Shown here: in pieces, positions 6,360 through 47,948 of the stretch
Numbering within the stretch: the stretch's first letter is position 1
How the letters are laid out: every line of letters starts with the position of its first letter
NCBI RefSeq assembly: GCF_964194025.1
Contig: NC_134481.1
Coordinates: 23,808,001 to 23,872,000 of the forward strand
From: Convolutriloba macropyga
Lineage: Eukaryota
Length of the DNA: 64,000 nt
Direction: 5' to 3'
Position numbers and translations under genes: made by a program
Notes under the pieces: model-generated
What the model saw: only the letters and a program-made list of their open reading frames with translations
Database searches by the model: none
Told to the model about the DNA's origin: nothing

Positions 6360-6966
6360 ACGAAAACAAACAGCAGTTAAAATGCCCTCATCGTTTGAGT
6401 AATTATTATCTAAGAATTTGCTATAAACTGCAGATGTTGAACTTTCCTAAGTTCGTACCGTGTAAAGCGTTGACAAGCTATGGTATTGGGTTGCTATCAA
6501 CATATTCATTAAAATGTAACCACCCCGAAAAAGCCATTAACGATATTCGTTGAATCTTTCTAGAAAGGGATTTAAAAAAACTTTCTTGCACTCGAAAGCT
6601 GCTGTTCTTAAGAATTATTAGGATCGTGTGCTATATAGATAACTATGATTTTGTTTGTTAAAATGAATAGGTAGGGTAGGTTTCGTGGGTTTTTTCCCTC
6701 CGCCAATTAATCATTAGGCGAAGTTTTCATTTACTGTCGTTAGTTTTGGTTAATGGAACGTGCTTTAACTATATTTAATATAGCAATGTAATTTCAAAAA
6801 TTATCGTTTGTTTATTTTATCGTTGTTGATGTTAATTTTATCCTATTTAGATATGTTGGATCTGTTTCTCATTTAGTGTTGAGGTTCGAAGCAACAGGTT
6901 TTAAAAATATTAGTTTGTGCGCAGTTAGAGCAGTTTAACTCATCATCAGTGTTTATTTCAGTTAAA

Positions 6967-9900
6967 ATGGGGTTAGTTTCATTAACAGCTGTGACTTGTG
7001 CTTTCTTTCTGTTGACCTCGATCGGTCAAATGCATCAGAAAAGTCAATTGAGTAGCAATAACGACGATTTTGCCGAGTTCGATGATGAAGAATTTGATGG
7101 CGTGTCATCACAAACTCATGAGCGAAATGAGCCCTCTGAGCGGGCAGATAATTCCAGATCGATGGGGCAAGATTTGGGATCTGGTGGTGGAGACAGTACA
7201 GAAGATGAGGATCCAGGTGTTGATGACGTTGAAGAAGTGGAGGATATTGAAAAGATAGGAAAAAATGGAGCCGTGGACAAAGATTTCAAGTCATTTGACG
7301 ACGAACCCGAAGATGAAGACGACGTTTTAATTGAAGAAGAGGTGAGTTCGGAATCGATCTGGAATGAGGTTAAACTGGTAAACTTTAACGACCCCATCCC
7401 CTGTATGATATACCCATTTGTAATTTATTGCTCTCAAAAAGAAGTTTGTAGCAGTTATATTAGTCCTGTGGTCTTTTTTTTACGATTTTTCGCTTGACCG
7501 ATTTTTCCTCTGAGCCATTTGACTTTTCGTCCTTAAAAACGGGTTAAATAGTAGGTAGCGCCAGGAGGGCATTAAGTGGCCGAAATTTCATCGAAAATGT
7601 TATCAGGAGACAATTTTATGGTGTGAAGGGTGGTTCTTAATCTTGAAAGTTTGTCCCACTCAGTCATCCCCCCTCCCACTCACTCCCCCCCTGCACCTGG
7701 TGATTTGAACCGTCTATCGTCCAGCCCTCCCAATCATACCCTAATTCGCAGCTGGCTACTACCGAAGCCAACCGCTCGCCGGTCGTTTGAGAGTAATTCC
7801 CCGACGTTAGTCGGTTATATACTCTAAATATAACCTTGAAATGGTAGCACCATTTCTTAACTAGGATTCACAACTATTCACTGTGGACGGATTCGTGTTC
7901 TACAAATACCAAATGAGCTCATCTATGGTCACCTTCGGTCTGTTCAATTAGTTCCTTTTCAGACAGAGCAACCAGCAGGGGAGAAAAAGAAGCCGATGGG
8001 AGATCTGTTCACTGGGGTGAAGAAAGAGGGTCTGAAAGTGATCGATGTCCCTGAACACTTGAGAACCAAATGGGACGGGTTCTACCTGGAGTTCCTCCTT
8101 CTGATCGGATTGGTGTCCTACGCTTTGAACTTCTTCTACGGCAAACAGAAGAATCAAAAACTGGCTTCAGCTTGGTTAGTTGTTCAACGGGTCAGTCAGC
8201 CAAAAAGCTATACTTTCCAATCCCGAAATGTTGGGATTTTATGGCTAGCAATGGAAAAAAGTTATTCATGGCATAGGCATAGTGACAATGGATGTTGATA
8301 AATAATTTTTCTTTGATTTGGTTGCTCTTTGCTCTCAATCAATGCCTGATGCGGTTGAAAAGGACTCCCTGAATCAACTGCAAATAATTAATAGATTTCT
8401 TCGGATTTTTTCTATTTGCGATAGAATTAAGGTACAATATTTGACCTCAGCGTCTGGCTAATTTTTGGTATTTTTGCTAAGTTTGCGTTATCAGACCTAA
8501 ACTTCTGGTGAAAAGGTATTAGTTTCATTTGGGTCTGTTGTTTAGGCTTGATACTACACGAACTACGCTGGAGCGTAACTTTGCGGTGGTTGGAGACGAC
8601 GGTACCTCTAAGGAGCCCCCGAGTGTCACTAGTACTGGGTACTCACCTGTGCTGATGAAAGAGACTGAACATGTCTTCTCCCTCTGGTGCTCAGGGCGAG
8701 TCGGATGTCAGAGTCTACTCATAGATCTCAAGGTAGCAACTTATTAACTCGAATGGAACTTCCGAGGATTTAGTACTACTTCTTTCTATTTGTCAGCAAC
8801 GGAAATTCAAAAGACATTATATAATTTCAGGGTTACACCGTCCGGTTACATTGACGAATACGAATTTGAAGGCAATTTTTCCATAAGTTATCCAGCTGTC
8901 ACGGTTCCTTTCTGTCAACTATTTAATTATCGATAGATTTTATACTGACCAAGTATGAACATCTTCATAACCGCTCAGGGTGTCTGAGGGCTAGAAGAAG
9001 AGTTTATTTATCCATCTAATACTTATTAAACAATACATTTGCAAAACAACATTTTGTACAGATGGAAAGGACAAACAACGAGTCACTGCGAACTACTATT
9101 CGGTTTACCCAGGCGATAGATCAAGAATTCATGAAGCAAGTTTTACAGAGCATATATAGTACAAACGGGGAATTATTAATCAATAAGAAAACAAATATCC
9201 GCAGTTTAGCAAAAACTTGGTATAACGCTAGAATCATTAAATCAGGCCCAACAGAATTTTTAACAAATTTATTTTCTTAGAATCCAAACGGTAATTGAGG
9301 AAAGGATGAATTTAATGATTGGTGCAATCCATCTTGGTTATCCTTGTTTGCCAAACGAAGTATCCTGAAAAATGAAAAACAACCCTTTTTACTAAAAAGA
9401 ACCTAAAAAACAACACAGAATTACAAAATGGGCAGCATGAGGCCCAGATAGAAGCCATTGAAACAAGATATTGCGTTGCAGTAAAAGAACAAGTCTTTTG
9501 CACCATTAAAAATGAGAAATTTGGCGCCTCGTGAATCTGAGACCAGGAGCAAAAAAACAACTGTGCCAGGAAGACATGAGCTGCTTTGGGCCCCAGGTAG
9601 TGGTTAACTACTTCCAGTTCCAAATATCGAGAGAGTGTTTCTATAACAGCTAACTGAAGCGATGCATGTTGATCTCTCAGAAGGTCCCGTTTAGTCAGGC
9701 TACAAAATTAGATACGGATTTAGATCATTTTTACAGACGAGTTGATGGCAGAAGTTGTTACTTTTTGGGAGTTTAGATAGGTTTAAATTTTAAGTGGCAT
9801 CGATTGCTGGTGTGATGACTAAGTATTAAAAATTTGCTCATCCTTGTTCTTTACTTGGAATAGAATATATTCCTCATAACATAAACACTTCTTTTTTCAA

Positions 9901-28496: not shown

Positions 28497-31400
28497 ATGC
28501 CGAGAAAACATCAACAGAGTGAGATCAACTTCAGAGAAACGAAGAAGAAGTCACAAAGTAAGTACCGCTCAAGAGATCTCAATATTGGAATAAATGCGAG
28601 ATATCAAATATTGGGATGAAAATATTCACTCATTTTCCAGGACCTGAATCCAAATCTGGATCATACCATTTTATTAAATGAAATCGCATTTCATTTTATC
28701 TGTGCTTGATTTCTTTCGACATCTGTGCAATATATCGAATTCAAAAAGTACGAACCAAAATATTGAGTCAGTTGAGTTTATGCAAAGATCTTTGAGTTCT
28801 ACCATTTTTGGACAGCTCCAAAAATTTGATCTCGTGAAATTTAAACTGAAAAAGCTTTGTACTCGTTGATTTTAACGTTTAGGCAGACAGAAAAGCAGTG
28901 CACAATTAGTTTGATGTCTGCCCGCCTAAGATTATCAATAGCCGCCGTCAGCCTCTCACACGGCTATTATTTAGGCGCTCTCCTTTTTGATTACAATTCA
29001 AAGAATTTGAATTGTATTGGGGCGCTGTCTTAAGATCTGTTCACACACTTTCATGATTTTTGAAGTCAAATTGGAGTAGTGATTTTGGTCACTCCGAAAC
29101 AGGTTTGTTCACGTGCGGCAAGTTCACTTTGGTTTTTACTCTTTTTGTGATTTATTAGATCGGATTTTTTTCTTAATGGTTATCCTAATCCAGTCATAGT
29201 TCATTCTAGGCCTAGTTTTTTTATCATCCAAATTTTCCTTTCTCGCTAGTGGTTTTTTGTTCATGCATTGAATTACGCAATGTGGTGAATAATGTCATAG
29301 TTATAATATCAGAATCAAATGAGGCGGGATGCAGCCCGGTCATTAAGTCATTGAGAATTAGGTTATCAAAATTCATTAGAGTTTTTGCTAGCTGATATCG
29401 GTATTAAGCTTATTACTTTCAGATTAGATGCTGAATTAAGTATAGTTTTAGAATCTAACCGAAACTGCACTCCAAATAGGAGCAGTTTTTGACACTAAAA
29501 GAAACAAATAAAATGCAGTCAATTTGTCTCCTCTTTTTTTTTTCTTTTTCTGTTTCAATCTTGATGTGCGTCAACGGCGGCTATTTTCTGCAATCTGGCG
29601 GCTATTTTAATATTTTGCTAAGAATTGATTTCGAATTTTATTTGCATATTTGCAAGAGTCAGTTAAGAGAAATGCAATAATCTTTTTAAATTTTTTTCCT
29701 AAACTTTATACGCTGCAATAACTTTCAGGTGATTCTTTATTATCCGACAATTCTTTCCAGGTTTCCGTAGTGCCAAGCCGACCATTGACAAAGAGAATGA
29801 TAATCAAGTGAAACTGGATTACGGACATAGTGTGGGACATAGTGTGGACGACATGTCTCTGCCGACTCCAATCCGACGTTCTTCAAGAAGGAACCCAACA
29901 GTCAACAGACGCATTGGATCTCCGAAAGCACTTGCTGTTGTATCTGAAAAAGAGAATCCATCAGGTGATTCAGATGAAAGCGATATTCAGATCATTGACG
30001 AGGCACCTTTGAAGACTCCCAGGTCTAAGCGAAAAGTATCGTCTGGGAAATTAAACAAAAAGGTTGTCAGTGGCTTTTTAGAAAATGACGAGAACAAAGA
30101 GAACGTCATAGATCTAACGGAAACCGACGAGGACGTTGTGAATACTGAATCAAAGTCAAGGACACAAAAGCTTCCTGTATTCACAATAAAGTCAAGCTTG
30201 AAATGCAGAAATGTAAAAGCTCCGATACAGTCAAAACAAGACGACGCGGTTTTAGGAACCAAGACGAGCAGCGTTTTCAACTTAGTCGAAAATGGTGTTG
30301 AAGAACGAAATAGAATATACTCGAACACGAACCGCGTAGAAAACTTGCCTGTTTTGCCTCTAACACCCCCAGATGAACCGGTTCCGGTCACTGCTTCTGT
30401 CAAGTTTGCTTCACCACTGAAAATCACCAGTGGTGAAAATGGACACAAGCCACCAATAGTTCAAGTAACCCCTCAGAACCAGAAGTCATTAAGAAGATCG
30501 ATCGTGGAATCGAACAGCCTGACATGCTCTGCTGTTGGTAGGAAACGAAGGATTCTCTTTCCCGGATGTTAGTGTTCAAATTTTTATCGTGACCGTACTG
30601 TTAGATACTTGCATTATCAGACATTTCATGGACGTTCTCATTTACTTGCACATTTTGAGTAACCCTCCCTAAAATTGCGCGGTGTACTGGATACTAGAAT
30701 GGCACGAAAAGTGAAAAATTTAACACTGCGCGTTGTTTGATCATCAGCATGTTAGTTTGAAATGTGCAACTTAAGCATATTTCGCAAGAATCTAAGACAC
30801 GATTGTATATCAGTCCATTAGCGTAAGACTCAGGTTGCAATATTTTCTAACTTCGTGTGCCCGTCTGTGAGCCAATTCTACACATTATCATGAAATGGAA
30901 TTGCTAATTAAGATCAAATATGTTATATTTGCTCATAAGTCCGTTAACTTACATTTAACTCAGGAAAATTCATGCTTCTGAATTTTTTGAATTAATTGTT
31001 TTCCACGTGTCAAAAGTTAGTTGGGATGCCTTTGTGTCCTCTAATCTGTGAAATTTTGTAAACTAACATTTTGAAACACGTGACTGTTTAGACGAGTACT
31101 ACCAAGAGATGAAAAGCGCTTTTTGTCCTAAGCAACAAGTCCTCTCTGACGACTACACCAATTTGGACAACAATATGCTTGCATTCGATGGAAAGGCCTC
31201 AGGCAAAAGAACCATCGAAGCCAAAGAAATCATTCCAGGTCGAGAGGAAGAAATTGACAGATTGCAATCTTTAGTGAACCAAGTTGTTTTGGAAAGACAA
31301 AATGCAAGTTTGTATATTTCTGGACCTCCTGGAACAGGAAAAAGCGCTTGTGTCACTGCAGTGTTGCAAGAGTTGCTCTCGAAACGTGGTAAAGACGTCG

Positions 31401-34400
31401 CAGTTGTTAAGATAGTCAACTGCGTAAGGTGCAGAACTCAACAGAGCATTCTAGAAGTCTTAGGATGTGATGCCGATGGAGTGTTCGCTGACAAGAAAAT
31501 GGGGTCAAGTAAAGGTCAACGACCTTTTATAGTTGTTTTGGACGAAGTGGACCAGGTGGAAGCAAACCACCACTCATTCATTTACAAAATGTTCGAGTGG
31601 GTTCACGAATGGAATTCTAGAACTTTCCTATTAATAGCAATTGCTAATGCACTGGATTTGACCGAGAGAGTTTTGCCAAGACTTGCGCTGTCATCTGTGA
31701 AACCACAGTTAATGCATTACAAGCCATACAGTGGGCCTCAAATTGTGAAAATTATCCAAGACAGAATTAGTAAGGTAAGTTTTAAATTTTGGCTCAGATT
31801 GATAGCCGAGGCTAAACGGATACTAAAATTGTGTAGTTTGTTTTCCAGATACTGCGTAAATCCATTTGATAATTATTCTCATTGGTGACTCAATTTTAAT
31901 TTTGAAGGCGTATTACGTAATTTTGAAGGCGTATTACGTACTGTATCTTTACTGAAGTTTGTTCCGACTCCATTGAGTGGGAGGAGATCAGCTAAATCCT
32001 CAAAGGGTTTTTAAAAACATGTATATTCAGTATATAACCAAATAGCTCAAACGTAATTGTAGCACAATAAAACAAATTATATTTAATTCATTTCAATTTA
32101 ATTCTGCTGTTATTTTGGAATTCATGAAAAAAGGCTTTAAAATCGGGTGTAGAATACTTTCGTTAGGGGGTTCGCAGGTTCTCTATTTTGAGGACTTATT
32201 GAGTTTCGAAGTTTTGGATGATAACTAATTCAATCCACTTTTGATGTCCTTTTTTGGTCAGTTTAAGTTTTTTTGGCGAATTATGTTGAAACTGTATACC
32301 GCTACCATATCCTGAATAGTCCTTAATAGTTGCTGGAATATCTGACCTGACGCTATGTTTTTGGGCTACATTTTAGAGAATATTCCCAAAATTGAGATAA
32401 TCGTGCGCTATATTTTGTCCAGTATTGCATAAAAACATTAAAACTTACCAACGAAATTAGGGTTGTAGGTTCCCACGTTGCTTGTTAATAGCCGCGAAGC
32501 GATAGCGGCTAATATTGGAGACATCGTGGTTTTTACGACTCGAAGAGGAGTATTGAGATTCTACAGGTTTTTACGACTCGAAGAAGAGTATTGAGATTCT
32601 ACAGGTTTTTTTAGCAGAAAGCATGTTTGTTCATGACTTGAATTTTGACTTTTTTCTGTTCGAGCATTTACCTCCGTTTGTGATTGTTGACTTCTGTTTT
32701 CGAACATTGGACTTTAACAGTATCGTTTGTAATGTATAGTAATTAGGAACTGCCGGTAATGTTCAAGGTGAAGAGGTCATTTTGAGATTTTTTTGTTCCG
32801 ATTTTTTTGTCCCGGATCTTCCAACGACAAAAAGCCAAACTACATAGAATCTTCACAGGCAGAGTTCTTTAGCAGTCTAAATTCTACGAGGATTGTAATC
32901 TTTACGAATATTCACGTGTTGATTTGATCGTAGCAATGAGATTGAATTTGACTCTGCTTTATAATAGCTAGTTCGCGTTATTAGTATTGAAAGAGCTTGA
33001 CCTATCGAAAGAGATCAAATTTAGGTCAACAATGGAATGGGATTGTCAAGTGGTATCCCTGGTGTCTCTAACTCTACTTCCCAGCCATTATTGGATCGGG
33101 GTGCGATTGAACTATGCGCGAGAAAGGTGGCATCCTCCACTGGTGATGCGAGGAAGGCTCTCGAACTGTGTCGAAAGGCTATCGAGACAGTACAGAGAGA
33201 GGCTATGAACCAGTACAACGCAATTCAGGCATTAGGTTAGTGTCTAAAACGCTATTCATGTTTCATTTCGACTTCAATGATTTTTTTTGCGTGTATAAGT
33301 ACAATTTTTGCATTTACTAGTAAGAGGAAGGAGTAGCAACTGCATAAAACATTTACTTTTAAAAGGGTTGCACCATAAATATCTCTTATGCATGGTCTTA
33401 CTGTACATGGGGAGCGGGATGAAAGATGAAAGAAAACGGTTCCTCTTGGGTTTCTGAAATTGATTTTGTTCCTTACCAGTACTGCCAATGGAAGCAAATG
33501 AGAATACTATTAAATATTAATAATGATGAATTAACCAAGCATTTTGGGCGGTACAAAAAGCGTGAACTTGCTTATTTACCGTCCACCTTCGTGCTTTTTA
33601 TTTCATTGATTTATAAAAAAAAATATTATTTAGCATTGAGGAAATTAAACTATTATTATTCCTCAAACTTGAACCGTACTTGTATTAAACAAATTCCAAT
33701 TCACTCTAGTATACTTTGTAAATAAAATTTAGTCCTGATTCACTGACGAGAAATCGTTTGACAGTCTTAAACTCGAATTTTTTCGTCTTGTCCATCTTTG
33801 GTCATGATCTTTTTTAGTTTTCAATTCGATTGATTGAGCTTAATTTAATTGAGCTTTCAATTAGATTGATTTCTAACATTGTTAATGAAGTTAAGATAGC
33901 AATTTGAACTGGGTGATGAAACTGACGTTAATGCTCGAAATTATCAAGACCCGAAAGCCTTTCTTAGAACCAATGCTTTTCAGATACCCCACCCCATAGT
34001 CCTAGACTAGACCAGGAGAACAGACATCCATCGGGAATTCAAGGAAACTCCACTCCAGGAAATGTGACTTCCAGGGTGACGATCTCTGTTATGAACAAAG
34101 TCATTTCGGACTCCTTGACGTCCTGGGCCAGTTCTAAGTCTAATTCTCTCGGATCAATGACGAGCTCCGTGAATAGTGGGATTGGGGGATATTCGATTAA
34201 CAACAGCGGAAGTAGTCAGGACTCTTGTCCCTTGCATCATAAAGTTATCATCACCTCACTGGCCAGGCTCACAAAACAATCTTCGGCTGCCTATTTCAAT
34301 ATGCACCAGGTTTGCTGACTTCCTCTAACTAACTGAGTAAAAACTAAATGAGTAAAAAGTTACCAGATGTCACGTTGCAAACGGTAATTAAATCATTTCA

Positions 34401-37400
34401 CAACGGGTCGATGTTTTTGTCGTTTTCCGCTACCTTTAGTTTCGCCCAAAACGTTAAACTGTTAAGTCATTATTAGGAGAGCTCAAAAATAAGAATTTTA
34501 AGAATCAACATTTCAGAGACGTTAAATTTGAACATGTGTAAGTTGCACATGTTTAAATACACAAAATTGTGAATATATGCAACCTGCTTCACATGAGCAA
34601 CCTCATATTTCTAAGAGTTCAATGAAAACTAAGCACAAACTATCGTTTTGGCATTTATATTTAAATAACCGATAACTTAAATTTATAAAAGATTCCTGAA
34701 TCTGCAGGGCCGTGCAAAGTAAGTGTTTTTTAAAATTATTTCGGTATATCCAATTATGGGGAAAATACGGAGTTTGTCAAGTGCCTTGTCTGACTCAAAT
34801 TCCTTTTGTCCTTGTTCAAATGAGCTATCACAACAAAAAACAGTATAAATCGGTCAAGTAAAACAAATTCGCGAACAAACAAAAAAATCCGCAGCTTTAT
34901 CTATGAATTTTTAGACGTTTCTTTTTCAGTACAGATGTTCAAAAATTTCTCATTTTTGTTACTGAGATAATCAATCTTAGCAATGAGGTTAGTTATAACG
35001 AAAGGTGTAAATGTGGGACAATGAAAAAAAGTATGTAAACATGTTTTTGTTCTGTTATGAAACTAAGGTTTAACTCATTCAATATATTTTATTGAATTTC
35101 TTATGAGATTACTTTTGGGCTATTGTTAACTTTATTTTTTCTGATTTCTTTAAATCTGTATTCTTAAGCACAGGAAACTATTGCCTTCATAAAAACACGC
35201 GACTCATTTCTCGTTTCGTCATATAGCGCTGCTTCTGGCAGCAAAAACAAAAGGCAAGAAAGTTACTAAAAGCCGCCTCAGCTTCTCAGCGGGCTATTAT
35301 AGCGCTGCTAATTTCTTTTACTTCGTCGAACAAAAAAATGTTTCGCGTTACCTCATTTTACCTCATTTTGTATCTTTTTGACTTCTCTTGGCTAGTTTCT
35401 CTCTTCTCTCATTCTGCTGAAAGTGATTTTGAACATCAGTTGCTCAGCAAAGCAATTCAAAATGAACAGAGTCATTATAAAAAAAATTGAAGTCAGAAAT
35501 AGAAACGGGATAAACCCATAAAGCCCAATTTTAGATGCCCGCTATTTGAACGTCGTTCCTATAAGTCTTATTTACCATCTCTAATGCTTATTGGTATTGA
35601 TAGTAGCCCCTGTAGCCTCTCTCCAAGAAACATAAGTATGTTCAACTACGAAATGCCATCAAAATAAATCGGACTTAAAAAATGTTTTTGTACAAAAATC
35701 TTTTCAATATCTTCTATTCTTTCAATCCCAATCATGCTTATTAGAATCAACGGCGGCTATTTTCCGGCAATCTGCCGGGTATGTTTTTTTAATGCCTTGA
35801 ATAAAAAAATTTTTCGCTTTACCTTAGTTCACAGCTTTTTCAACATTTTGCTTGAAATCTTTTTGACTTCTCTAGGCTAGTTTTACTCTTCTCTCTAAAA
35901 GAGTTTTTAGAGAGCAGTTGCTCAGCAAATCAATTCAAAATGAACAGAGTCAGTATCAGAAAAAAACGAAATCACAAAAAGAGAAGCGGGATAAACCCAG
36001 AGCCCAGTTTTAGATGCTCGTTACTCGAACTTGGTTCTTATAAGTCTTAGTTACCATTTCTAATGTTTATTGGTATTGATACTGGCTCCTGTATCGCCAC
36101 ACTATGAAACAGGAGAATGTTCAACTACTAAGTGACATCAAAATAGTTCGCACTTTAAAATTGTTTTTCAAAATTTATTTTTCATTATTTCTTCTTTCAA
36201 TCCCAATCGTGGTTATGGGAATCAACGGCGGCTATTTTCGACAATCTGCCGGGTATGTGTAAAGTTTGATGTTTTTGTAGTACATTTCAACAATTTTGCA
36301 GATTCATGCTGTTATCTTTTCAAAGATTTTCGCCTGAGTATTTTCCATCAATTTGGTGCCCCGCTTTCAACGACTTTCACTGAGTTGAGCGAGTGGCTCT
36401 TAACTCAGTTTTCATCAGACTTGTCGAAAAATCATGGTCAGAATATAGATGTTTGTTGGGACGAGGAAAAATTTATTACCATGAATTAAAAACTTAAAAG
36501 ATAAAAGGAACTAGTTTTTTTTCTTCGTTTTAAAGTTTCTCTCGAGTCTTTTCTTTCTTTTATGTCTACTTTTCTGATGACTCTCTCCAATTTGTGCGAA
36601 CAAGTCAGTATTAATTTGCAAATTTCTTCAGATAACTTTCCTGTATTTGGAAAAAGAGTGGTTTTCGATTTTTTTCGGATGCATCGCTTCCTGACCGAAG
36701 TTTTTCATCCAAAATTCAGTTAACAAGATTCTGAATCCAAAAAATCAGTGATACCTTAAGAAATTGAAGCACTTGTGAGCTCATTGATGAAGTTGAAAAA
36801 ATTAAACTGGTTTTCAAGTCTTTCCCTGCATTTCAATGATTTCCCCTTGCAACATTAATGCATTGTCCTTTAATTGAAATACTCGATCTCAAATGGGAAA
36901 AATTAAACTTGTTTATAATACTTTGTTCATGAGTCAGACCTCTCACAGAAAATGACACAGACGAAAGATTTACAGGAAAGTTTTTCACTTTGTTGTACGC
37001 TTTTTTTCAAGTGAAGTATTTTCGTAGTTTTTTTCCTCTTGGCTGAATGCTTTGGTTGTTAGTAGGTTGTTGTTCTTCGTGTAGTTTTTTTGTACTGAGA
37101 CTTCAAAGTTTCTTTTGATATCAATTTTAAGTTCGGACGGCTGCACCGTTTTGACTAATTTTGTCAAAAAAGTTTTAATTATTCCATAATCATTTTATTC
37201 AAAGCTGAGTGTTCCATTGAGAATTTCGAGAATCTGGAGCTCATTAACAAAAATAACTGCTTTTCAAGTGTTATTTCAAGTGCTTTTTGACAGTTATCAT
37301 AATTTTTCAAAATTTTTTGCTTCCATTCACGTTTTGAAGCATTCTTGATTTCAGTTTTGAAGCATTCTATGTTTCAATTAAAGCACACGTTGGAAAACCA

Positions 37401-40400
37401 GAGAAATATGTATTATAATTACTCCGAAATCAGGATCCTCCGAAATTAACTGATTTAACTGTCTGGAAGTCAGAAGTCAACTGTATGGATAAACCATTTT
37501 TTTGTTTCGTTTTATTCGCTTCTTTTTGAACAAGTCTTTTTCGACCCTTTTTCTCTGAAGCTGTTACCTTACTGGGTATTCTTTCACGTCATTGAAATCT
37601 CGCAGTTATTGGGTATCCTATCATACGACGATCAGAAAATCTTTTGTTATTTTGTATTTATCGGTTATTTTTCGTTTTTTTAAGACATCCAAAAAAGAAA
37701 TAAAATTCTTATTGGGTATTCTGCTTGCTTCATCACCGGTGAGATCATTCACATCTTATCTCTACTCACATTTTTAAATAATTTTCAGGTCAGAAACGAA
37801 AATAAAAATGCTTTAGATTTTTTTAAAAAGTCAACTATAGCAAATACGCGTTGTCATCATGTTTTCAAAAAAAAGTTCTCGAGAAAAGCAACAAAGCAGA
37901 ACTAATTGCGAGGCTTTTGGAGACTTATGAAAAAATGCAAGAAAAAGACAATCTCATAACAAAGCTTGAAAAATATCTTGTTAACTCTGAAATGAAAAAA
38001 TCAACTGTCGGACATCATAAAGAAACTATTGATCGCATGGAAAGAGGTATCGAATTTTTCAAAACAAAAACTTCGAAAGTTATTGATAATTTACTTGAGA
38101 GACAGGAGACGTCAAAAAGCAACATTTGTGTTGATCCTCCACTGAAAATTTATCAACCAAAATTCATTCGCCGATTTGCCAAGCAATTAGTTATATCTGA
38201 TAGTACTTTTCGCAAAGGAAATCAGCATGACTGCAATCCACTCATATTCAACTGCAACAATAGGAGATATTTCTAATATGGTTAATTGCTATTCCCCTGG
38301 AGCCAAAACGGAAACATTAATTGTACATGTCGGTCATAATTCAATTGACAAAGGTGTTTCTGAACAGGAGGCAGCGACTCAACTCAAAGAAACAGTCGAC
38401 AAGTGTATGCTAAAACTCAAACATCGTCGTGTTGCTACATGCAAAATTGGTCCGTTAAAAGGTGGTTGCTATGGTAAACTCAAGTAAATAAGAAACATGA
38501 AAATTTAGTAAATGTACTGATTTGCAGAGAATGCTGATTTTTTTATTATTCATTGCGGCTGTTCGTAGCGTTTCACTTTTTCTTAACAGAAGTTTTTTTG
38601 CTTCTTAGTGGTGACATAGAAAAAAATCCTGAACCCTTTGATGTTTCAAAATTTTCTATTTTGGATGTTGCTTTATTTGGCGCTCAAAATGGCCTCAAAT
38701 TTCTGCTTTTCAACGCTCGCAGCAAACAAAATATGTATCAAGTTATATCAAATTTGCTTCAGCAGCTGGACTCGGAAACTATTGTTATAGTAACTGAAAC
38801 TTGGATGAGCGAAGAACAAAACTTGAATATAAGCCTCCGCGCTGAGAACAATTATAAGCTTAAAAATCGGTCACATAAACAGGAGCAGCTAAGGGTGGGG
38901 ATGGGAGGCTTTGGGTTCCGAAGAAAATAAATTGTAAACGCAGAAGAGAATTTGAGTTTGCTGATCCAATAATTTTTGAAACGTTGTGGCTGGAACTAGG
39001 CAATCCCTTAGTGGAAAAATGTCTCGTTAACATCTATTGAACACATCAAAGCCTGGGTGATTTCTTTTTAGACGAATTAAGTGCCAAGGTTTCTAAGGCA
39101 ATCTCAACTATTGATAATGTTCTTTTATTTGGTGATGATAACCTTGATATGTTGAGCATAAATGGACAGAAAAGCGTTCTATTTTTTGCGGCGGAACTAG
39201 TATTACAATTATCTAACACTGATATTCCTACAAGCATAAGCAACAATAAATGAAGTTTGATAGATCACTTTTTCGGCTAATGAGCAAATCACTAGTTGGA
39301 AAATCTGCTTACTTCCTTTCGATATTGAACATTTAATTTTTATTCAGAGCAAACTTTTTTGATGGAAAAAGAAAACTATTTTATTAGACGAAATACAGAA
39401 AGTTTTGTCGATGAAAAAGTAGAGATCTAGTAGAGATCTGGCTCTGGCACATTGGAGAATAGTTTATCAACAAAGAAACTGCCATGAAATGTTTGACCGA
39501 ATTTTTAAGAATTTTTTTGAGAACACTCGGGAAAACCGCACAAACAGAGAAGAAATTAATTTCCAATATCGAAAAGACTGCTTCAGATAAACCTTGGGTG
39601 ACAAAAGAAATTAAACAGTTATTTGCTGAGAAACATTGTTTTTTTCAATGACTACAAAATTAACACAAAGTGCTGAATCATTTGTTTAAAAAGTATCGCA
39701 ATCTTGTAAATCTAAAGTTAAAAGAAGCACTAAATCTTTTTCAGAGGATTATCTTAAGAAAATTGAAACCTCAAAAGAGAATTGGAAATTCATTAACAAA
39801 AAAATTGGACAGAAATAACAGTCCAAACATCACTGAAATTGATGAAAATGGTCAAAAAAGGAAAGGCAAAAGTCAATCTCTAACGCTTTCAACAGAGGTT
39901 TTAGCAAAATGGGCATCAACAGAGGGCAGATTGTTCCATTGGATGTCGAGAAATTAGAGTGGAATTTTCAGGAATTTAACTTAACACATTTTAGTTTGAG
40001 GGAAATCTATTAGAGTTATTGGCACTTAAGACAACATTAAAGCACCAGTGCTGGGATATCTCAATGCTTGGGCATTGAAATCCTGAAAATGCTGTTGGAA
40101 CACATCTTCAGATTATATTTGACGTATTCAAGAGAATTTTCCAATAATTGTTAAGGATGCACACATCACACTATTTTTCAAAAAAGGGGATGTTCTGTTT
40201 CAACTAATTACGGTCCAAATTTCGGTAATTTCTGCGAATGTTTTTGAAAGACTTTTACTTTATCTATAAAGTCGTCTATTGATGCTGTGCTTTACTTATC
40301 TGGACTAATAATAGGAAATATGGAAGATAACAACGACACAGGTTATCTGTTCTTAGATCTTGCAAAAGCTTTCAATTCAATTTCACATGAGATCTTTCTC

Positions 40401-43400
40401 AAGAAAGCTGAAGGTTTCAATCTCTCACTCAACAGTTTTACTTCTCAAATCTTTTCTCGCAAATTGAACACAATGCGTAAAATCGTGTTCCGACTATCAG
40501 ATAAAATAACTATTAATCATGGTGTTCCACAAGGAACTGTGTTAGGACCTCTTATTTTTCTGTTATTTGTCAACGACTTTTCTTAAAAACTGGAAGGTGA
40601 AAATGATGTTGCTGAATTTGCGGATGACAATTACATTATATAAAAGTAATGATAATATTCCACAAAAAATGAAAAAAAATATAACAAACAGACAAATACC
40701 TGACAGAGAATCAACTCACTTTAAATGGCGATAAAACAGATGTTATTCTTTACAAATCATACTAATTCGGATCCAGAGTTTACTTCCAAAGCTGAAGTGC
40801 TCAAACCAGATCATGCTTGTCGTTATCTGGGGGTAAAAATTGATTAAAATCTAACCTTTGAAAATCACTTGAACTCAGTTTTAAGCAAAATGGCTAATAC
40901 ATTTCGTTCTTTGTATCTTGTAAGAAATCAAATTCTTTGGAAATAAGAATTGGTGTTTTCAAGTCAGTTGTGCTGTCTCCTCTTTCTTTCAGTGGAGTAT
41001 TCCTTCAAACTCTTACAGCGAAAAATATAAACCGCCTAAGCAGGAAAATTAACTGGGGAATAAAAGTTTGTTATTTTCGACAAAAATTTGACCACTCCCT
41101 TGATCTTCTCATTAAGGAGCGTATCCTGCCAGCCAAATTGTTTATCTCAAATGTTAGCCTAATGATGCTGCAAACAGATATAAGACACTGGGAAACATCC
41201 GAAAATTTTAAATATTTTAGTGGCCATAACGCTAGACAGAAAAAGAGAACAAATCAAATTATTTTAAAAAAGAGGTGGACTAACAACAAAAATGAAGTGG
41301 AGTAACAAATTGATCTTGAAAAACGTTCAAAAATGGAACAAAATGCCCTTTTCAATAAGAATTTTTAACTGTAAAACTTGCTTTAAAAATGTTTTAACCG
41401 AGTTTTTGCTCGATCAGCACAAAAAAGTACCCGTTAATACACAAATAGGAGCCTTCAAATCCTATTTTTTCCTATGAGATCGAACAGCCAGTTTTAAGAT
41501 TTTTATATTAATAACAATGCTGATAAGTTTATTTAACATTTTGAAGCATGTAGATATCTAACCTTAGGGTTATTTTGTGAGTAATTTACATGTTTTAACA
41601 AAAAATGAATTTCTGTAATTTACATGTTTTAACAAAAAACGATTTTCTGTAATTTACATGTTTTAACAAAAAACGAATTTCTGTTCTTGGCTGCGTTAGA
41701 ATTCTTGCACATCAATGTTAAAAATTTTTATCTTTTGATGTGGGTTTTCGTTTGGGCCAGTTTTAAGATTTTTATATTAATAACAATGCTGATTGGTTTA
41801 TTTAACATTTTAAAGCATGTATATATCTAACCGTAGGGTTATATTGTGAGTAATTTACATGTTTTAACAAAATAACGAATTTCTGTTCTTGGCTGCGGCA
41901 GAATGCTTGCACATCAATGTTAAAAATTTTTATCTTTTGATGTGGGTTTTCGTTTGGGCCAGTTTTAAGATTTTTATATTAATAACAATGCTGATTAGTT
42001 TATTTAACATTTTAAAGCATGTAGATATCTAACCTGAGGGTTATATTGTGAGTAATTTACTTGTTTTAACAAAAAAATGAATTTCTGTTCTTGGCTGCGG
42101 CAGAATGCTTGCACATCAATGTTAAAAATTTTTATCTTTTGATGTGGGTTTTCGTTTGGGCCAGTTTTAAGATTTTTATATTAATAACAATGCTGATTAG
42201 TTTATTTAACATTTTAAAGCATGTAGATATCTAACCTGAGGGTTATATTGTGAGTAATTTACATGTTTTAACAAAAAAACGAATTTCTGTTCTTGGCTGC
42301 GGCAGAATGCTTGCACATCAATGTTAAAAATTTTTATCTTTTGATGTTGGTTTTCGTTTGGGCCAGTTTTAAGATTTTTATATTAATAACAATGCTGATT
42401 AGTTTATTTAACATTTTGAAGCATGTAGATATCTAACCTTAGGGTTATTTTGTGAGTAATTTACATGTTTTAACAAAAAATGAATTTCTATAATTTACAT
42501 GTTTTAACAAAAAACGAATTTCTGTAATTTACATGTTTTAACAAAAAACGAATTTCTGTTCTTGGCTGCGTTAGAATTCTTGCACATCAATGTTAAAAAT
42601 TTTTATCTTTTGATGTGGGTTTTCGTTTGGGCCAGTTTTAAGATTTTTATATTAATAACAATGCTGATTGGTTTATTTAACATTTTAAAGCATGTAGATA
42701 TCTAACCTGAGGGTTATATTGTGAGTAATTTACATGTTTTAACAAAAAAACGAATTTCTGTTCTTGGTTGCGTTAGAATGCTTGCACATCAATGTTAAAA
42801 AATTTTATCTTTTGATGTGGGTTTTCGTTTGGGCTAATTAATAGTTCTGAAACTTCTCTGAATTTCTTTTGGAACTACTCTTCTATGTATATTTGAATAT
42901 TACCAAACAAATGCATGGTTTTCAGTTCTGTTCAATGACTTTTGAATTTTTTTTGTTCGAAAATCGAGGGAAACGAGAGAAAAATCAATTCGACGTTTCT
43001 TCTGACTAATATGTCTTGTCTTCAATGCATTATCAATCATAAAAGCACTATTTTCACAAACCGGTCTTGTTTTTCAAATCTTTCTAGCTTCTCGGCTAAT
43101 CGTGATAACATGTCCTCCAAGATTAATGTTGGTCATTTTAAAGTTTGCTTTCGGTTGTTCTAACGCAACTTGATGGGCTTTTGGCAAATATACGGGTCAA
43201 CTGAGCAACTGACCATGCAATTGCACTTGTGCACATAATTTGGTCGGTTTTAAGAAGACAAATTTTAAGAAGACAAAAAGAAAAATTCGAAATGATTAAA
43301 GCCAACGGTAATCGGGTTGTTGTTCATTCTCATGCTCTTTCTTCCATTGTAAAGTAATGCGTTGGGCGTGCTGACTCTGACTGATGCCACAGGCTTTCCA

Positions 43401-44179
43401 ATTTTTGGTTTCAAATAACATGAAAGCAATTTTGAAACCGTTGAAGAATTCAGCGAGACTGGTATTGGCTTTGAAATAAAATGTTTTGGCATTGGTCCAA
43501 GCTCAGTTATATTATTAGAATGCCAAATTTAATCATTTCAGGTATTGGCTAAGTACGCTTTGGTGTGCAACGAGAAAGCCATTGCTACTCTGGATCAATC
43601 ACAGCTTCATATGGTTATGAACCTACTAGAGGCCAGAGGTCTTCTACAGTTGACTGCCCCCGGCAACAGGAAGCTGGGGACCTGCGACCTCAGAAACATG
43701 AAGGTTTGTTTACGAATCTTGGTCAAATAAACTGTCTTCATTGTTTCTTAAGTTGCTGTCAAACAAATTTCGTAGCTATTTTTTGGTCTTATTGATCTAT
43801 TGGCTGATTTAATTGTCTATCATAAGCAACTTGATAGACGCGATTAGTACAAACTTGATAGTACATGAGAGAAATTTTATAGTGCACGGAAGCCATAAAT
43901 GAATGTCGAAAAGGGAATTTTTGTTATTGAAAATGCATTTCTCTTTGCTGATGGTAGCCACCTAAGCGAAAGCTAACTACTGTGAATTAGATCAGCTGTC
44001 CGTAGTTTATGGTAATAGTAAGTTACACTCCATAATTTAGACTTCATTGTACTCGCTCGTTTGCTGCTGGTCAAGGAGAGTAAATTTGCTGACACATTCT
44101 ATTTGAACTTGGTACGTTTCAGGTCCACGTCAAGGGAAATCTGTTCGAGCTCCTGTCTTCAAATGAACTTGACGTGTGA
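28497..44179 (+). CDS. CDC6: Cell division control protein 6 (AAA+ helicase loader), 7 coding exons, about 768 aa
   Basis: Exons 28497-28557, 29761-30567, 31092-31774, 33025-33235, 33984-34309, 43542-43703, 44123-44179; GT-AG, frame continuous (2307 nt). GREEE, Walker A YISGPPGTGKS, Walker B VVLDEVD, IAIANALDLTERVLPRL, AIELCARKVASSTGDARKAL, winged-helix LLEARGLL. An alternative in-phase exon 2 donor exists at 30538. Confidence 0.92.
28937..29605 (+). mobile_element. Helentron-like host with a truncated family A insert (from 28993), CDC6 intron 1
   Basis: AATAGCCGC...GGCTATT start, A 5' hairpin after the T-run, end GGCGGCTATTTTCTGCAATCTG. Confidence 0.75.
32487..32612 (+). mobile_element. Host 5' end followed by two 38 bp copies of the family C 5' end
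   Basis: AATAGCCGCGAAGCGATAGCGGCTA, then ACGACTCGAAGA(G/A)GAGTATTG at 32535 and 32573. No 3' end recognised. Confidence 0.6.
35268..36257 (+). mobile_element. Family D element (35268-35783) followed by a second D-like body lacking its own 5' end (35791-36257)
   Basis: Two CGGCGGCTATTTTC...CAATCTGCCGGGTATG ends; body highly similar to 13410-13936. Confidence 0.8.
37800..41480 (+). mobile_element. Decayed non-LTR retrotransposon (CR1/L2/Crack-like LINE) in CDC6 intron 5
   Basis: ORF1 remnant: coiled coil plus LVISDS and IVHVGHNSI (SGNH esterase-like). ORF2 remnant: LLLSGDIEKNPEP, APE motifs FNARS, IVTETW, LFGDDN; RT motifs FLDLAKAFNSISH, GVPQGTVLGPLIFLLFVND, FADD, RYLGVKI. Many stops and frameshifts; 5' boundary approximate. 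Confidence 0.9.
41487..42834. repeat. Tandem array of six units (269, 202, 202, 202, 269, about 203 bp)
   Basis: Unit start GCCAGTTTTAAGATTTTTATATTAATAACAATGC at 41487, 41756, 41958, 42160, 42362 and 42631. Confidence 0.95.
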
Positions 44180-45106
44180 GTCATTTTGTCAACAGCCGGA
44201 AGTTTGAACTGTCACAATGTAAAATTTGTTCTATTTTTGTTCTGTTCGAACAAAACCAATTAAACAACGACATGCCACCCCCACATAATATATCACTAAT
44301 TTTCAAATAATATAGTAAAAAGATCGGAGATAATTGTACCAATCATCTCAAGTCTGATTGAAACACTTGGGATCTCAAGACTAATGGAAATTGATGGGAA
44401 AGATTCATCGTAATGTTAACTGAAAACGATATTGTTTGGAATTTTCTTTTGTTCCGACTGGACGGTAAAAGCATAAGTATGTATAGAAGACGTCGAAAAA
44501 AATTGTCGAATTTATTTGTCTTCTATCCATCGTGAAAATTCATTGTTAATTGCTCTCAAACGAAGTTTGTAGCAATTATATTAGCCCTGTAGGTCCTTTT
44601 GGAGACTGTTTTGGAGACTTATACTCATGGTGTGAAGGGGCGGTTCTTAGAGGTTGAAGAGCACCCCCACTGTTGACCTTCCCCCCACTATTGCCCCCCC
44701 ACCCCACTGTTACCCCCTCCCTCCCCAATACCCCCCTCCCTCCACCGTGGCTACTGACCAACAATCGATCGCTGCAAACACGCATCTTCTTACTAATTTT
44801 ACAATTTTTTTCAAGCATTTTAAAAATTTTTGTCATGTTTCGAGTTCTTGTGGCCCTAGGTGTCAAGGAAGCTCCTCCAGGCTTTTATAATACGTTACTG
44901 AATAGTTTTTAGTGGTAGTGGAATGGTTTCAACATTTTAACATCACGAATTTTTTGGTTATTTTTGACAAAACGTGCAAATTTTTTCCAGTTTTTTGACT
45001 TTTTTTTCATTAGCCACCTCTTTCAAGACGCAGGGGCCAGAAAACGTCCTTAATGGTTTGATAATAAGTTACTGAAAAAAATTATTTGCCATGGAATAGC
45101 TTTCAA

Positions 45107-45380
45107 TTTGAACCCAATTGAAGTTGAACCCAATTCAGTTGCTGATGTGAACTGTCCTCCTCTACGCTTCTTCCCGTTCAAACATCGTGAGTTCCATGAT
45201 TAGATTTGTAAGTGATATGGGGTTCTGAGTTATTGCATTTTCGAACACTTAAGACTTCATAAAGTAAACAAATCGAATTTCCTAGCATTCATGTAGAATT
45301 ACGGAAAAGCTCGACACCTTGTTCCATTCTTCCCTATTGGTCAAGTTCAGCTAACCATTCTTTTCCAGAAAAAGTCATCC
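45107..45380 (+). pseudogene. Maverick/Polinton minor capsid (penton-like) C-terminal remnant
   Basis: Frameshifted translation EVEPNSVADVNCP/LLRFFPF...FPSIHVELRKS/HLVPFFPIGQVQLTILFQKK resembles the recalled minor capsid C-terminus (VGD..APLLR, SI.IEL, VPF..G...LTL.F). Confidence 0.6.
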
Positions 45381-45399
45381 TTATTTGTTCTTATGAAAA

Positions 45400-46490
45400 C
45401 AGTCGGCTGAAATTCAAATGAGTTGCTTGTTTCACTCCATGCTGGACTTTTTCGGGAAAGTTCCAATTTTAGAACCCAATCTTTGTTCCAATGAACATAT
45501 ATTTCCAACAAATTCACTAATTGAAAATACAATCGAATTCCAGTTGGAAAGTGATCGTAATATTTTACTGACTTGAGATCTACTCGATTTTTCATCAGAT
45601 GAAGGCCTATTAATGGTGATGGAACACGTTGGGATAATACCGAAGAAGCATTATTAGTAAACAATGCTCTTCATTCTCTTTTCTCTAACTGCGAAGTCTA
45701 TCTGAACAATGAACAGGTTCACAGTGTCAATTCTCTTTATGCACATCAAGCTTTTATCTGCAGAATTTTCAGGGACGATGGAAAGTATCTCACTGCCAAG
45801 GATATCGTTACGAAGTTAAACTAAATGGTTTAACAAAAAATCTTTTAGATACTGTTTTCAGAAGGTTAAAGATGAATCTACTTCTTACGGTTCCTTGGCA
45901 ATAGGTCTTTTTGCTCGTGAAGCTTTACTTTTTTCCGAATGTCAACCTCCGACTTTAATTGATCCGATATCTCAGCGTTTTATATGATTGATACTGTGGG
46001 GCTGAACTCCGAGTCTTGAACTTTGGAAAGTTGCCTTTTTACAAGACAGTTCGTGATCTCAGATAAGTGGACAAAAAGTTTTAAAAGCAAACTGCTCCGA
46101 GATGCTGCCATATTTTTGAAGAACTTCCAAAATGTTTATTATTTCCGCAGGAAATCAGTTTTTACAATAAAATATATTTTCAAACAAACCAATTCGAATG
46201 ATTGATTTTGCTATGAATATTGACAATGAGTTCAGTGAAACATACAACACGAATCTTTTTCATATTCGTAATCTTGATCTGGGACAAGTCAAACTTGTGC
46301 ATGGAAATCAAACCTTGGTTAATTTAAAAACGGAAAATCACGTGCGAGCTTATGCTGAAACAATGAAAGCACTAAGTTTGATGATAACAGTCCTAACATT
46401 CAGTATAAGGATTTTAAAAATCATTTTCATTTTTTTATCTGGTTTTTAACACAGGAGGCTAATGTTGAAATACATTATTTTGTGGTGAAC
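45400..46490 (+). pseudogene. Maverick/Polinton major capsid protein remnant
   Basis: IFPTNSLIENTIEFQLESDRNI, LVNNALHSLFSNCEVYLNNEQVHSVNSLYAHQAFI, PNVNLRL, FAMNIDNEFSETYNTNLFHIRNLDL follow the order of recalled Maverick MCP motifs (IEF, NN.LHSLFS...V.LN, NPF.F). Frameshifted. Confidence 0.75.
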
Positions 46491-46535
46491 GAATAAGTTC
46501 AATGGCAGTTGACAAAGAGAGGTCAGTTACCAAAA

Positions 46536-46710
46536 ATGGATAACCAACAACTTCTGCATGTAGTCAACAGGTTACCTCACCTAAGTTTCAATTATCTTGG
46601 TTCCTTCCCTGCTGATCTTCGACCACGATTTTTACCTTCAAACACGTTTTGTATAGTCAACACTGATACATCACCACAGCCGGGCCCCTCTGGATATTGC
46701 TTGCAAATTT
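46536..46710 (+). pseudogene. Adenain-like cysteine protease N-terminal remnant (Maverick PRO)
   Basis: MDNQQL...YLGSFPADLRP...FCIVNTDTSPQPG, then after a frameshift WILLA. Matches the G.FP.D / IVNTD / PG.HW pattern; truncated. Confidence 0.75.
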
Positions 46711-47948
46711 TCTCTCATTTTTCCGGCCCCAGGGTCCTGGGGACCCTCTCCAAGGTTGAATGATCAGCTGTTGCATAGTTTCTAGAGTTAATCGAATGGT
46801 TATCAATATTCTAATGACTCCAGCTTTAGCAATTGTTTGATAAAATTTATTTTTCAAATTTTTGGAAAATTATGTTCCAAGTTTATGGATCTTTATTGGG
46901 CAATGAAACTATTTAAAGCTTGAAATAGGGATACTGTATTGTCTCTTGAGGCAACAAAATGGTTTTTAAGATTTTAATATTCTGAATTTTAGCAGGATTT
47001 TGTTAAAAATTGCGGTTGTTTTCAAATTTTTTGAATTTTTTTGTTTTCTGAGATTAACGATCATTACTGGTCAACGAAGCTTTTCAAGTCTTGCAGATGG
47101 TTACTTGACATAACTCCGGAGACAGAAAATAGTTTTGAACATTTTCACTCCAAAATCTGGAAGCATCTCTTTTAAATTTTGCAATTTTCTGCAAGTTTTT
47201 AAAATATCAGTTTTTCATTTGATTTGTTGATTTGTTTACTAAGAAGGCTAGAAAACTAAAAGTTGCAGAGTCGAATCAAGCTAAAGCTAGCCTCACTAAA
47301 CCGTGGCTGGCTACTGACGAAGACAACCGGTCGTTTGAGAGCAATGCGCCCGACGTTAGTCAGTTATGTTTTTTTCTTTTTCTGTTTCAATCCCGATGTG
47401 CATCAAGCGCGGCTATTTTCCGGCTATCTCTTACATATTCACCCTCTGCTTAATCTATAATGTTGGTGTGTCGCTGTATGCCTTATACACAAAATTGTGC
47501 CTTCTTTAGTCAATGATAATTGGCAAAATACTGAATAGCAATCAAAACTATGCTGAATAATGGTAAATAAGTGCAATTTTCATTCTGTCTGCTCTTGTTA
47601 TTTGTTTGTTTTTGTTCAATTTGTAATTTAATATTCATTGTAATATGGATTTGCACTAATTAATGTGATGTGAATCAAAAGTTTTTTCAGTGAGTTAGCA
47701 ATTGCCTGCTTAAAACAATTTGCGGCTGAAGTGCACTGCCGTCAAAGGAAACAATTAATTGGGGAGAGGGGTAGGAGCAGAAGCAGATATACCGGTCAAT
47801 TACAATTCTACAGTTTCGGTGTTCCAAGGTGTAATTTAGTTTCATGCTAAATTTACTGACAATCTGATGCCTCAATTGAATCGGCTATCTGGCATTTGAT
47901 TGATAGATTTTTCTTCTGATGTTGAGCCAACGTCAATGCGAAGTTTTT

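What the first reader, a model, noticed from the sequence alone, without database searches (positions are those of the whole stretch)
44548..47368. Maverick/Polinton virion module (penton, major capsid, protease) inside a rolling-circle-type element
Seen: about 1.6 kb (45107-46710) encoding three consecutive decayed virus-like proteins lies inside a family G element. The sister copy at 55125-56595 is colinear on both sides (…GCCATGGA.TAG.TTTCAA left; TTTTCCGGCC.CAGG.TCCTG right) but has about 235 bp of ordinary element sequence there. Established: Mavericks/Polintons encode minor capsid, major capsid and adenain-like protease genes, and Helitron-superfamily elements capture gene fragments. Inference: this is capture of a virus morphogenesis cassette by a HINE-like element, which could spread it or supply small-RNA memory against the virus.
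Basis: partly seen in the sequence, partly recalled or inferred. Interest (0 to 1): 0.8.

Follow-up and report, generated by a model that had tools for sequence, protein, structure and literature searches.

The report
Dead virus fragment stuck in transposon
A broken 1.6-kb piece of the capsid and protease genes of a virus-like Maverick element sits inside one copy of a very common small transposon, likely patched in during DNA break repair; no second full copy was found, so it is most likely an ordinary genomic scar and not a travelling virus cassette.

Summary
Window 45122-46708 is an internal piece of a resident Maverick family, 81-84% identical to it: the last third of the putative minor capsid gene, the double-jelly-roll major capsid gene and the first 58 of 131 protease codons. 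It sits inside a HINE-type element with both ends present. It is not a module: both outer genes are cut, and it carries 23 indels and 6 new stops. It was not mobilised as a unit. The left junction and the internal deletion each occur once in the genome, against 1,784 exact HINE 3' ends. The right junction recurs at two places 102-118 kb away. These are one segmental duplication of another HINE copy that shares only about 220 bp of cargo plus about 85 bp of arm (5 of 8 rare letters shared inside, 2 of 37 outside). Best reading: a one-off repair ('filler DNA') insertion, later partly copied into a neighbour by ectopic repair. No Maverick ends lie at the junctions. Small-RNA memory is untested. 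Ordinary; low interest.

The parts
44548..45109 (+). HINE-type element, left arm, with 5' subterminal inverted repeat at 44550-44563 after a TT
45110..45125 (+). 16-bp near-copy of the adjacent Maverick 15-mer (45126-45140) at the left junction; only TT is shared between element and Maverick; templated insertion or later slippage
   Evidence: junction found once in the genome
45122..45377 (+). 3' third (aa 181-267 of 267) of the Maverick gene before the major capsid, putative minor capsid; broken
   Evidence: identity as penton inconclusive
45412..46540 (+). Maverick major capsid pseudogene with many frameshifts and stops and a 76-78 bp deletion near 46478
   Evidence: relative's model pLDDT 87.6 matches virophage, iridovirus and PBCV-1 capsids; deletion junction found once
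46536..46708 (+). 5' part (about 58 of 131 codons) of the Maverick cysteine protease gene, cut by the right junction
   Evidence: weak Peptidase_C5 hit of the relative, E 0.003, below cut-off; weak match to protease S273R
46487..46800 (+). Tract shared with two other HINE copies (G000:C15:23736781 and 23752963, minus strand): last ~220 bp of cargo, right junction and ~85 bp of arm
46709..47370 (+). HINE-type element, right arm, with 3' subterminal inverted repeat 47331-47344 and hairpin 47350-47363 (one stem mismatch), ending in a T run
55126..56595 (+).

Best explanation
A decayed internal 1.6-kb piece of a resident Maverick lies inside one copy of an abundant HINE-type element, likely copied in once as filler DNA when a break in that copy was repaired, and no second copy of the whole chimera is found. 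Shown: the donor family, cut genes, no Maverick ends, single-copy left junction and deletion, and decay at all codon positions. Inferred step 1: a double-strand break inside the HINE copy was mended by end joining or aborted strand-invasion synthesis on a Maverick template (a genomic copy or free Maverick DNA of a subfamily not found among the scored hits). This replaced some hundred bases of the element and left 2-4 nt overlaps and a 16-bp duplication. Inferred step 2: later a break in another HINE copy about 110 kb away was repaired on this locus. Its right end paired with this right arm, copied leftwards about 85 bp of arm and about 220 bp of cargo, and rejoined at a 3-nt overlap, so that an ~80-bp element unit was doubled. 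Step 3: that neighbour was duplicated with ~14 kb of flanks (shown). The fragment is predicted to have no function.
For: Donor: 40 of 191 candidates scored, 39 other than the window, 78-84% identical. 29 of the 39 were fetched; 0 of 29 have HINE flanks, and one of them aligns over most of its 4.4 kb to the other 28. Two copies read in full have long inverted repeats, AGTAGT ends and 6-bp target duplications. The cargo is bases 6636-8351 of a 14,696-bp copy, more than 6 kb from either end; no other piece of its coding part and no AGTAGT/ACTACT motif lies in the element. Decay: differences by codon position 58, 45 and 131 of 503, with 23 indels and 6 stops; control between two Maverick copies 5, 2 and 50 of 557, one in-frame indel (sums of the three genes). 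The arms differ from column-wise commonest letters at 66 of 908 sites (sum of six segments), a similar age. Copy counts: left junction 1, deletion 1, right junction 3 plus 1 chance hit, window-type arm haplotype 3, exact family 3' ends 1,784. Tract: the neighbours rank 1st-2nd only for the last 220 bp of cargo and the first 92 bp of arm, and 2nd-43rd elsewhere, with 2nd only at the 53-bp conserved 5' end. Rare letters shared 5 of 8 inside, 2 of 37 outside, Fisher p 0.0008. The doubled unit's left copy differs from its window-like right copy at the shared rare sites it covers. The two neighbours share flanks at 96.5-97.4%. The filler-DNA model and templated insertions are in print (PMC6544945, PMC7407515; passages).
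Against: The overlaps are only 2-4 nt (up to 8 if a site ~35 bp upstream is used) in AT-rich DNA, so chance is not excluded. The 16-bp duplication may be later slippage. The exact donor was not found (best 80-86%), so donor-side junction letters are read from relatives. The tract border was chosen after seeing the data, so p is optimistic. DNA searches scored only 40 of 191, 3597, 2159 and 213 candidates, and patterns miss copies with more mismatches. The neighbour's left junction lies ~9 bp from this copy's internal deletion, which the model does not explain. Private changes in the 220 bp are uneven: 4 here, 12 in the neighbour.
Confidence: 0.6

Rival explanations
1. A whole Maverick inserted into the HINE copy and was then trimmed by two deletions (or one imprecise excision) that removed both ends and a little HINE sequence; the tract copy to the neighbour came later as in the best reading.
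For: Mavericks are abundant and integrate with 6-bp duplications here. Deletions with short overlaps occur in this locus (76-78 bp at 46478). The similar ages of cargo and arms fit either order.
Against: It needs two deletions of more than 6 kb each, both ending within a few hundred bases outside the insertion point, with both HINE ends spared (inference). There is no terminal-repeat remnant in the element; the only Maverick-like ends in 264 kb belong to a separate element 70 kb away.
Confidence: 0.2
2. The fragment was picked up by template switching during Helentron-driven rolling-circle copying, and this locus is the single product of that transposition.
For: Both element ends are present. 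Rep-helicase genes occur in the genome (90 matches). Helentrons carrying amplified gene fragments are in print (PMC4067079, section 12 read).
Against: No parent or sibling with both junctions. End bypass does not yield internal cargo (PMC6544945, passage). No autonomous partner with these ends was found in the 10 Rep-helicase loci examined.
Confidence: 0.12
3. One reading: the HINE captured a virion module and spreads it, or keeps it as small-RNA memory against the Maverick.
For: The right junction occurs at three places. Window-specific cargo sequence is found unchanged in contigs of two further studies, so the allele is not private to the assembled sample.
Against: The three places reduce to one full chimera, one ~300-bp tract and one segmental duplication. 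The genes are cut and decayed. Identity to the living family is only ~82%.
Confidence: 0.04
4. This copy and the neighbour both copied their shared tract from a third, now lost or unassembled, chimeric locus.
For: The shared tract is short; its left end in the neighbour lies ~9 bp from this copy's internal deletion; private changes are uneven.
Against: No third locus in any junction or haplotype search; it needs an extra lost locus.
Confidence: 0.04

Closest known systems
Filler-DNA sequence acquisition by Helitrons (Hel1 family of insects; PMC6544945, passages read)
   Same: Internal foreign DNA with both element ends kept, and short end overlaps attributed to break repair.
   Different: There the acquiring exemplars were amplified; here no amplification is found, the host is of the Helentron/HINE type and the donor is a Maverick.
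Helentron-Cq-32A with histone gene fragments (PMC4067079, section 12 read)
   Same: Decayed gene fragments about 83-84% identical to the parent inside a Helentron-type element.
   Different: Eight copies carry the fragments there; one full copy here. The cargo is virus-like.
HINE / DINE-1 non-autonomous Helentrons (PMC4067079, passages read)
   Same: 14-bp subterminal inverted repeats, 3' stem-loop, T-rich boundaries, internal repeats, no coding capacity.
   Different: The autonomous partner was not identified; the target site was not tested against an empty allele.
Mavericks/Polintons (adintoviruses) and their degraded endogenous relics (PMC8502044, passages read)
   Same: Donor family has terminal repeats, rve integrase, A32-type ATPase, double-jelly-roll capsid and a protease; the cargo is a degraded relic.
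   Different: The relic is a 1.6-kb internal piece without ends, integrase or polymerase, lodged in another element.
Ectopic strand-invasion repair between repeat copies, and templated insertions at end-joining scars (PMC7407515, passages read)
   Same: A short tract copied between non-allelic repeat copies; short duplication at a junction.
   Different: Here the pathway is inferred from sequence only; the tract carried a viral scrap and doubled an element unit.

Membership tests
Maverick/Polinton (donor family) | Long terminal inverted repeats and 6-bp target-site duplication; AGTAGT ends (motif recalled) | tested here: met
   2 of 2 copies read in full
Maverick/Polinton (donor family) | Retroviral-type integrase and A32/FtsK packaging ATPase | tested here: met
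   rve E 5e-9 and Pox_A32 E 6.8e-9, both over cut-off, one copy
Maverick/Polinton (donor family) | Double-jelly-roll major capsid | tested here: met
   85-sequence model pLDDT 87.6; best matches Sputnik, iridovirus and PBCV-1 capsids, E 2e-14 to 6e-14; Atlas look-alikes carry PF21738 in 24-30% of members. Pfam scan itself gave no capsid hit in 85 of 85.
Maverick/Polinton (donor family) | Adenain-type cysteine protease | tested here: inconclusive
   Peptidase_C5 E 0.003-0.004 and C48, below cut-off; S273R protease E 0.027; consistent but weak
Maverick/Polinton (donor family) | Single-jelly-roll minor capsid (penton) | tested here: inconclusive
   No Pfam hit; Atlas hits are unnamed, mostly viral clusters, recognition below threshold; not folded; position before the major capsid only
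Maverick/Polinton (donor family) | Protein-primed PolB | tested here: inconclusive
   1,436-1,442-aa frame on the opposite strand with no Pfam PolB hit; DTDS-type motif seen, its meaning recalled
Maverick element (the cargo itself) | Termini, integrase, polymerase, whole virion genes | tested here: not met
   Internal piece 6636-8351 of 14,696 bp; two of three genes cut; no ends
HINE (non-autonomous Helentron) | Subterminal inverted repeats near both ends | tested here: met
   14-bp repeats at 44550 and 47331; same in other copies
HINE (non-autonomous Helentron) | 3' stem-loop | tested here: met
   Perfect 5-bp stem in 15 of 28 full-length ordinary copies; one mismatch in this copy
HINE (non-autonomous Helentron) | Insertion in TT / T-rich sites without target duplication | tested here: inconclusive
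   T-rich boundaries in the copies printed; no empty site compared
HINE (non-autonomous Helentron) | Autonomous Rep-helicase partner with the same ends | tested here: inconclusive
   10 loci of 20 kb chosen from 90 matches; none seen bounded by these ends; ends may lie outside the stretches
Helitron/Helentron gene capture with amplification | Several dispersed copies with both junctions and different flanks | tested here: not met
   Left junction 1, deletion 1, right junction 3 local
Filler-DNA capture | Short homology between acceptor and donor at the junctions | tested here: inconclusive
   2 nt plus a 16-bp duplication left, 3-4 nt right; exact donor missing
Small-RNA (piRNA-type) antiviral memory | Small RNAs from the cargo that target the donor family | not testable with these tools
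   No RNA run was available to lay

The most novel reading that the evidence does not exclude
HINE copies act as break-prone acceptors that pick up pieces of an active Maverick and pass them between neighbouring copies by ectopic repair, not by transposition, seeding virus-derived sequence that the germ line turns into small RNAs against the Maverick; this locus and its neighbours would be a snapshot of that relay.
Probability: 0.06. Interest if true: 0.55.

Novelty: new member of a known kind. Interest (0 to 1): 0.2.

Why it matters
As it stands it is a tidy natural example of two known processes: internal sequence acquisition by a rolling-circle-type element, and copy-to-copy repair that doubles an internal unit. 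The second suggests one way in which HINEs grow their internal repeats and why 'several copies share a junction' does not prove mobilisation. It gives no evidence for a virus cassette carried by a Helitron-type element. It would matter more only if the cargo yielded small RNAs against the Maverick or if dispersed chimeras turned up in related genomes.

Tried and rejected
Mobilisation as a unit: rejected on copy counts and arm comparison. Fourth right-junction hit on C1: no similarity to Maverick or element, chance. The 86% hit at C15:36.57 Mb as donor: it is an ordinary family member, 80% over the longer piece. The 14.5-kb element with Maverick-like ends 70 kb away as donor: no capsid or other core genes. 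Single-sequence fold of the capsid: pLDDT 33.7, not used. Sequence search of solved structures with the capsid profile: nothing significant. Pfam for capsid and putative penton: no real hit. Autonomous partner: not found in 10 loci. Sequencing runs: no RNA holder listed, which is no evidence on expression; contig depths were not used as copy numbers; the left junction is reached by only 28 letters of arm in the listed contigs, below the tool's bridging rule. Global alignment with the sister misaligned the left arm and was not used there. Whether the element lies in an intron of the upstream Cdc6-like gene: unresolved. Earlier notes of the scan: none. Literature: seven searches listed no title or abstract start describing a Maverick fragment inside a Helitron/HINE. 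The library lacks most subscription papers, listed papers other than four were seen only as listings, and no supplements were opened.

Full report
Observation. The region is as described. A repeat element runs from 44548 to about 47370, with 14-bp subterminal inverted repeats at 44550-44563 and 47331-47344 and a hairpin at 47350-47363. The copy at 55126-56595 is colinear on both sides and has 240 bp between the anchors where this copy has 1,612 bp. It is not the closest relative: it ranks 8th to 45th among 45-50 matching copies in ten arm segments, and ordinary copies have about 85-940 bp at that place.

What the cargo is. A genome search with the cargo scored 40 of 191 candidates; the 39 other than the window are 78-84% identical. 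I fetched 29 of the 39. None has HINE flanks, and one of them aligns over most of its 4.4 kb to the other 28. Two copies read in full are 14.7 and 15.8 kb, with long terminal inverted repeats, AGTAGT ends and 6-bp target duplications. One of them gave an A32-type ATPase (E 6.8e-9) and an rve integrase (E 5e-9); its 1,436-aa frame gave no Pfam polymerase hit. The 412-aa frame, folded with 84 relatives, reached pLDDT 87.6 and matched Sputnik, iridovirus and PBCV-1 major capsids (E 2e-14 to 6e-14). The 131-aa frame has only sub-cut-off hits to adenovirus-type and Ulp1 proteases and to protease S273R (E 0.027). The gene before the capsid has no family hit, so 'penton' rests on position. This gene set fits Mavericks/adintoviruses as described in PMC8502044 (passages).

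It is a fragment, not a module. The cargo corresponds to bases 6636-8351 of the 14,696-bp copy. It holds aa 181-267 of the first gene, the span of the capsid gene and about 58 of 131 protease codons. Against that natural copy it differs at 58, 45 and 131 of 503 first, second and third codon positions, with 23 indels and 6 new stops; two Maverick copies differ at 5, 2 and 50 of 557 with one in-frame indel (sums over three genes). I infer a donor subfamily that diverged under selection (third-position excess) and then roughly 8-9% unselected decay. The element arms differ from column-wise commonest letters at 66 of 908 sites, so capture is about as old as this HINE copy. No Maverick end motif lies in the element; in 264 kb the only Maverick-like ends belong to a separate palindromic element 70 kb away.

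The host element. It has the features given for HINEs in PMC4067079 (passages): subterminal inverted repeats, a 3' stem-loop (perfect in 15 of 28 full-length ordinary copies), T-rich boundaries and internal repeats. Its exact 31-nt 3' end occurs 1,784 times. Rep-helicase genes exist (90 matches), but in the 10 loci examined none was seen bounded by these ends. So it works like a HINE; the partner is not shown.

Junctions and copy number. Left: element and Maverick overlap by TT, followed by a 16-bp near-copy (45110-45125) of the next Maverick 15-mer. Right: 3-4 nt of overlap at 46706-46709. The left junction occurs once with up to 2 mismatches in 27; the internal deletion once with up to 3 in 28. 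The right junction occurs four times with up to 1 in 22: here, at C15:23736556 and C15:23752739, and once by chance on C1. DNA searches across the right junction ranked the same two loci next to the window; the left-junction search showed no other spanning hit. These searches scored only 40 candidates each, of 3597, 213 and 2159, so old diverged copies can be missed.

The two neighbours are not transposed daughters. They lie 118 and 102 kb away, inverted, and belong to one tandem duplication with flanks 96.5-97.4% alike; their flanks are unrelated to this locus. They hold only cargo 46487-46708, at 91-93% identity. They are this copy's nearest relatives for that piece and the next 92 bp, and rank 10th-43rd in the other arm segments, apart from 2nd and 9th at the 53-bp conserved 5' end. 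Letters rare among 29-36 ordinary copies are shared with the neighbour at 5 of 8 sites in 46720-46800 and 2 of 37 elsewhere (Fisher p 0.0008; border chosen after the fact). The window-type arm haplotype occurs only at these three places. In the neighbours an ~80-bp element unit stands on both sides of the cargo; the left copy differs from the window-like right copy at the shared rare sites it covers. This is what a one-ended invasion would leave: the right end of a broken HINE pairs with this arm, copies leftwards into the cargo and rejoins at a 3-nt overlap. That mechanism is inferred. Not explained: the neighbour's junction lies ~9 bp from this copy's internal deletion, and private changes in the shared cargo are 4 here and 12 there.

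Reality of the locus. Four runs of contigs were laid. A contig of run X2 crosses the right junction with no difference. A contig of X5, from another study, covers 46437-46671, across the window-specific deletion, with none. A contig of X6, from a third study, covers 46450-46622 with none. The best holders may be the source sample. The left junction is reached by only 28 letters of arm in the listed contigs.

Mechanism and rivals. Best (0.6): one-off filler-DNA insertion during repair of a break in this HINE copy, then partial ectopic copying to a neighbour, then segmental duplication. The filler-DNA model predicts internal cargo with short end homologies, and end bypass does not (PMC6544945, passages); templated insertions, non-allelic repair and short duplications from ectopic donors are reviewed in PMC7407515 (passages). 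Insertion of a whole Maverick with loss of both ends (0.2) needs two deletions of more than 6 kb that spare both HINE ends. Capture during rolling-circle copying (0.12) lacks a parent or sibling. Spread as a unit or small-RNA memory (0.04) fails the copy test and is otherwise untested. A lost third donor for the shared tract (0.04) cannot be excluded.

Novelty. Decayed, amplified gene fragments in Helentrons are known (PMC4067079, section 12), as are degraded Maverick relics. Seven literature searches listed nothing on a Maverick piece inside a HINE, but the library is partial, most hits were seen only as listings, and no supplements were opened. The scan's earlier notes held nothing. Verdict: a real but ordinary chimera of two abundant repeats, a new member of a known kind; interest 0.2.

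Noticed in passing
G000:C15:23923794-23938267 (L068-L069), 70 kb right of the finding: 14.5-kb element with AGTAGT/ACTACT ends, a 6-bp target duplication and ends 96-98% like a Maverick terminal repeat. It is largely one giant palindrome (arms up to 98.7% alike) with tandem repeats and a 300-aa open frame in each arm without Pfam hit, and no Maverick core genes: a likely non-autonomous fold-back Maverick derivative.
   Followed up: partly
window 29733-43703: Cdc6-like gene on the + strand (AAA+ frame at 31067-31888; exon 43542-43703 hits Cdc6_C, E 0.0004, below cut-off), ending or continuing about 850 bp upstream of the element; last exon not located.
   Followed up: partly
G000:C15:23733006-23763764: Tandem segmental duplication of about 14-17 kb at 96.5-97.4% holding the two neighbour copies and a ~940-bp-period array; a further local duplicate keeps only ~10 bp of cargo.
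   Followed up: partly
window 46478 versus 46487: The neighbour's left junction lies about 9 bp from this copy's 76-78-bp internal deletion; unexplained coincidence.
   Followed up: partly
L094-L131: 8 of 28 ordinary full-length HINE copies hold stretches of 150 bp or more found in fewer than two other copies; some reflect missed ends or nested insertions; not identified.
   Followed up: no
G000:C16:33.94-33.96 Mb, C6:50.31, C1:22.47, C4:49.03 (L158-L161, L166-L169): A young Rep-helicase element family (87-98.6% alike) with a long ~94-bp tandem array upstream of its open frames; other Rep-helicase loci have single frames of about 2,500 aa.
   Followed up: no
run X6 (organism B, study P3) on window 46450-46622: A 173-bp contig identical to the window's decayed cargo in a run labelled as another organism; close relative, mixture or label unclear.
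   Followed up: no
window 37827-41305: Decayed reverse-transcriptase-like frames next to a ~202-bp tandem array at 41487-42834; the label is from recalled motifs.
   Followed up: no
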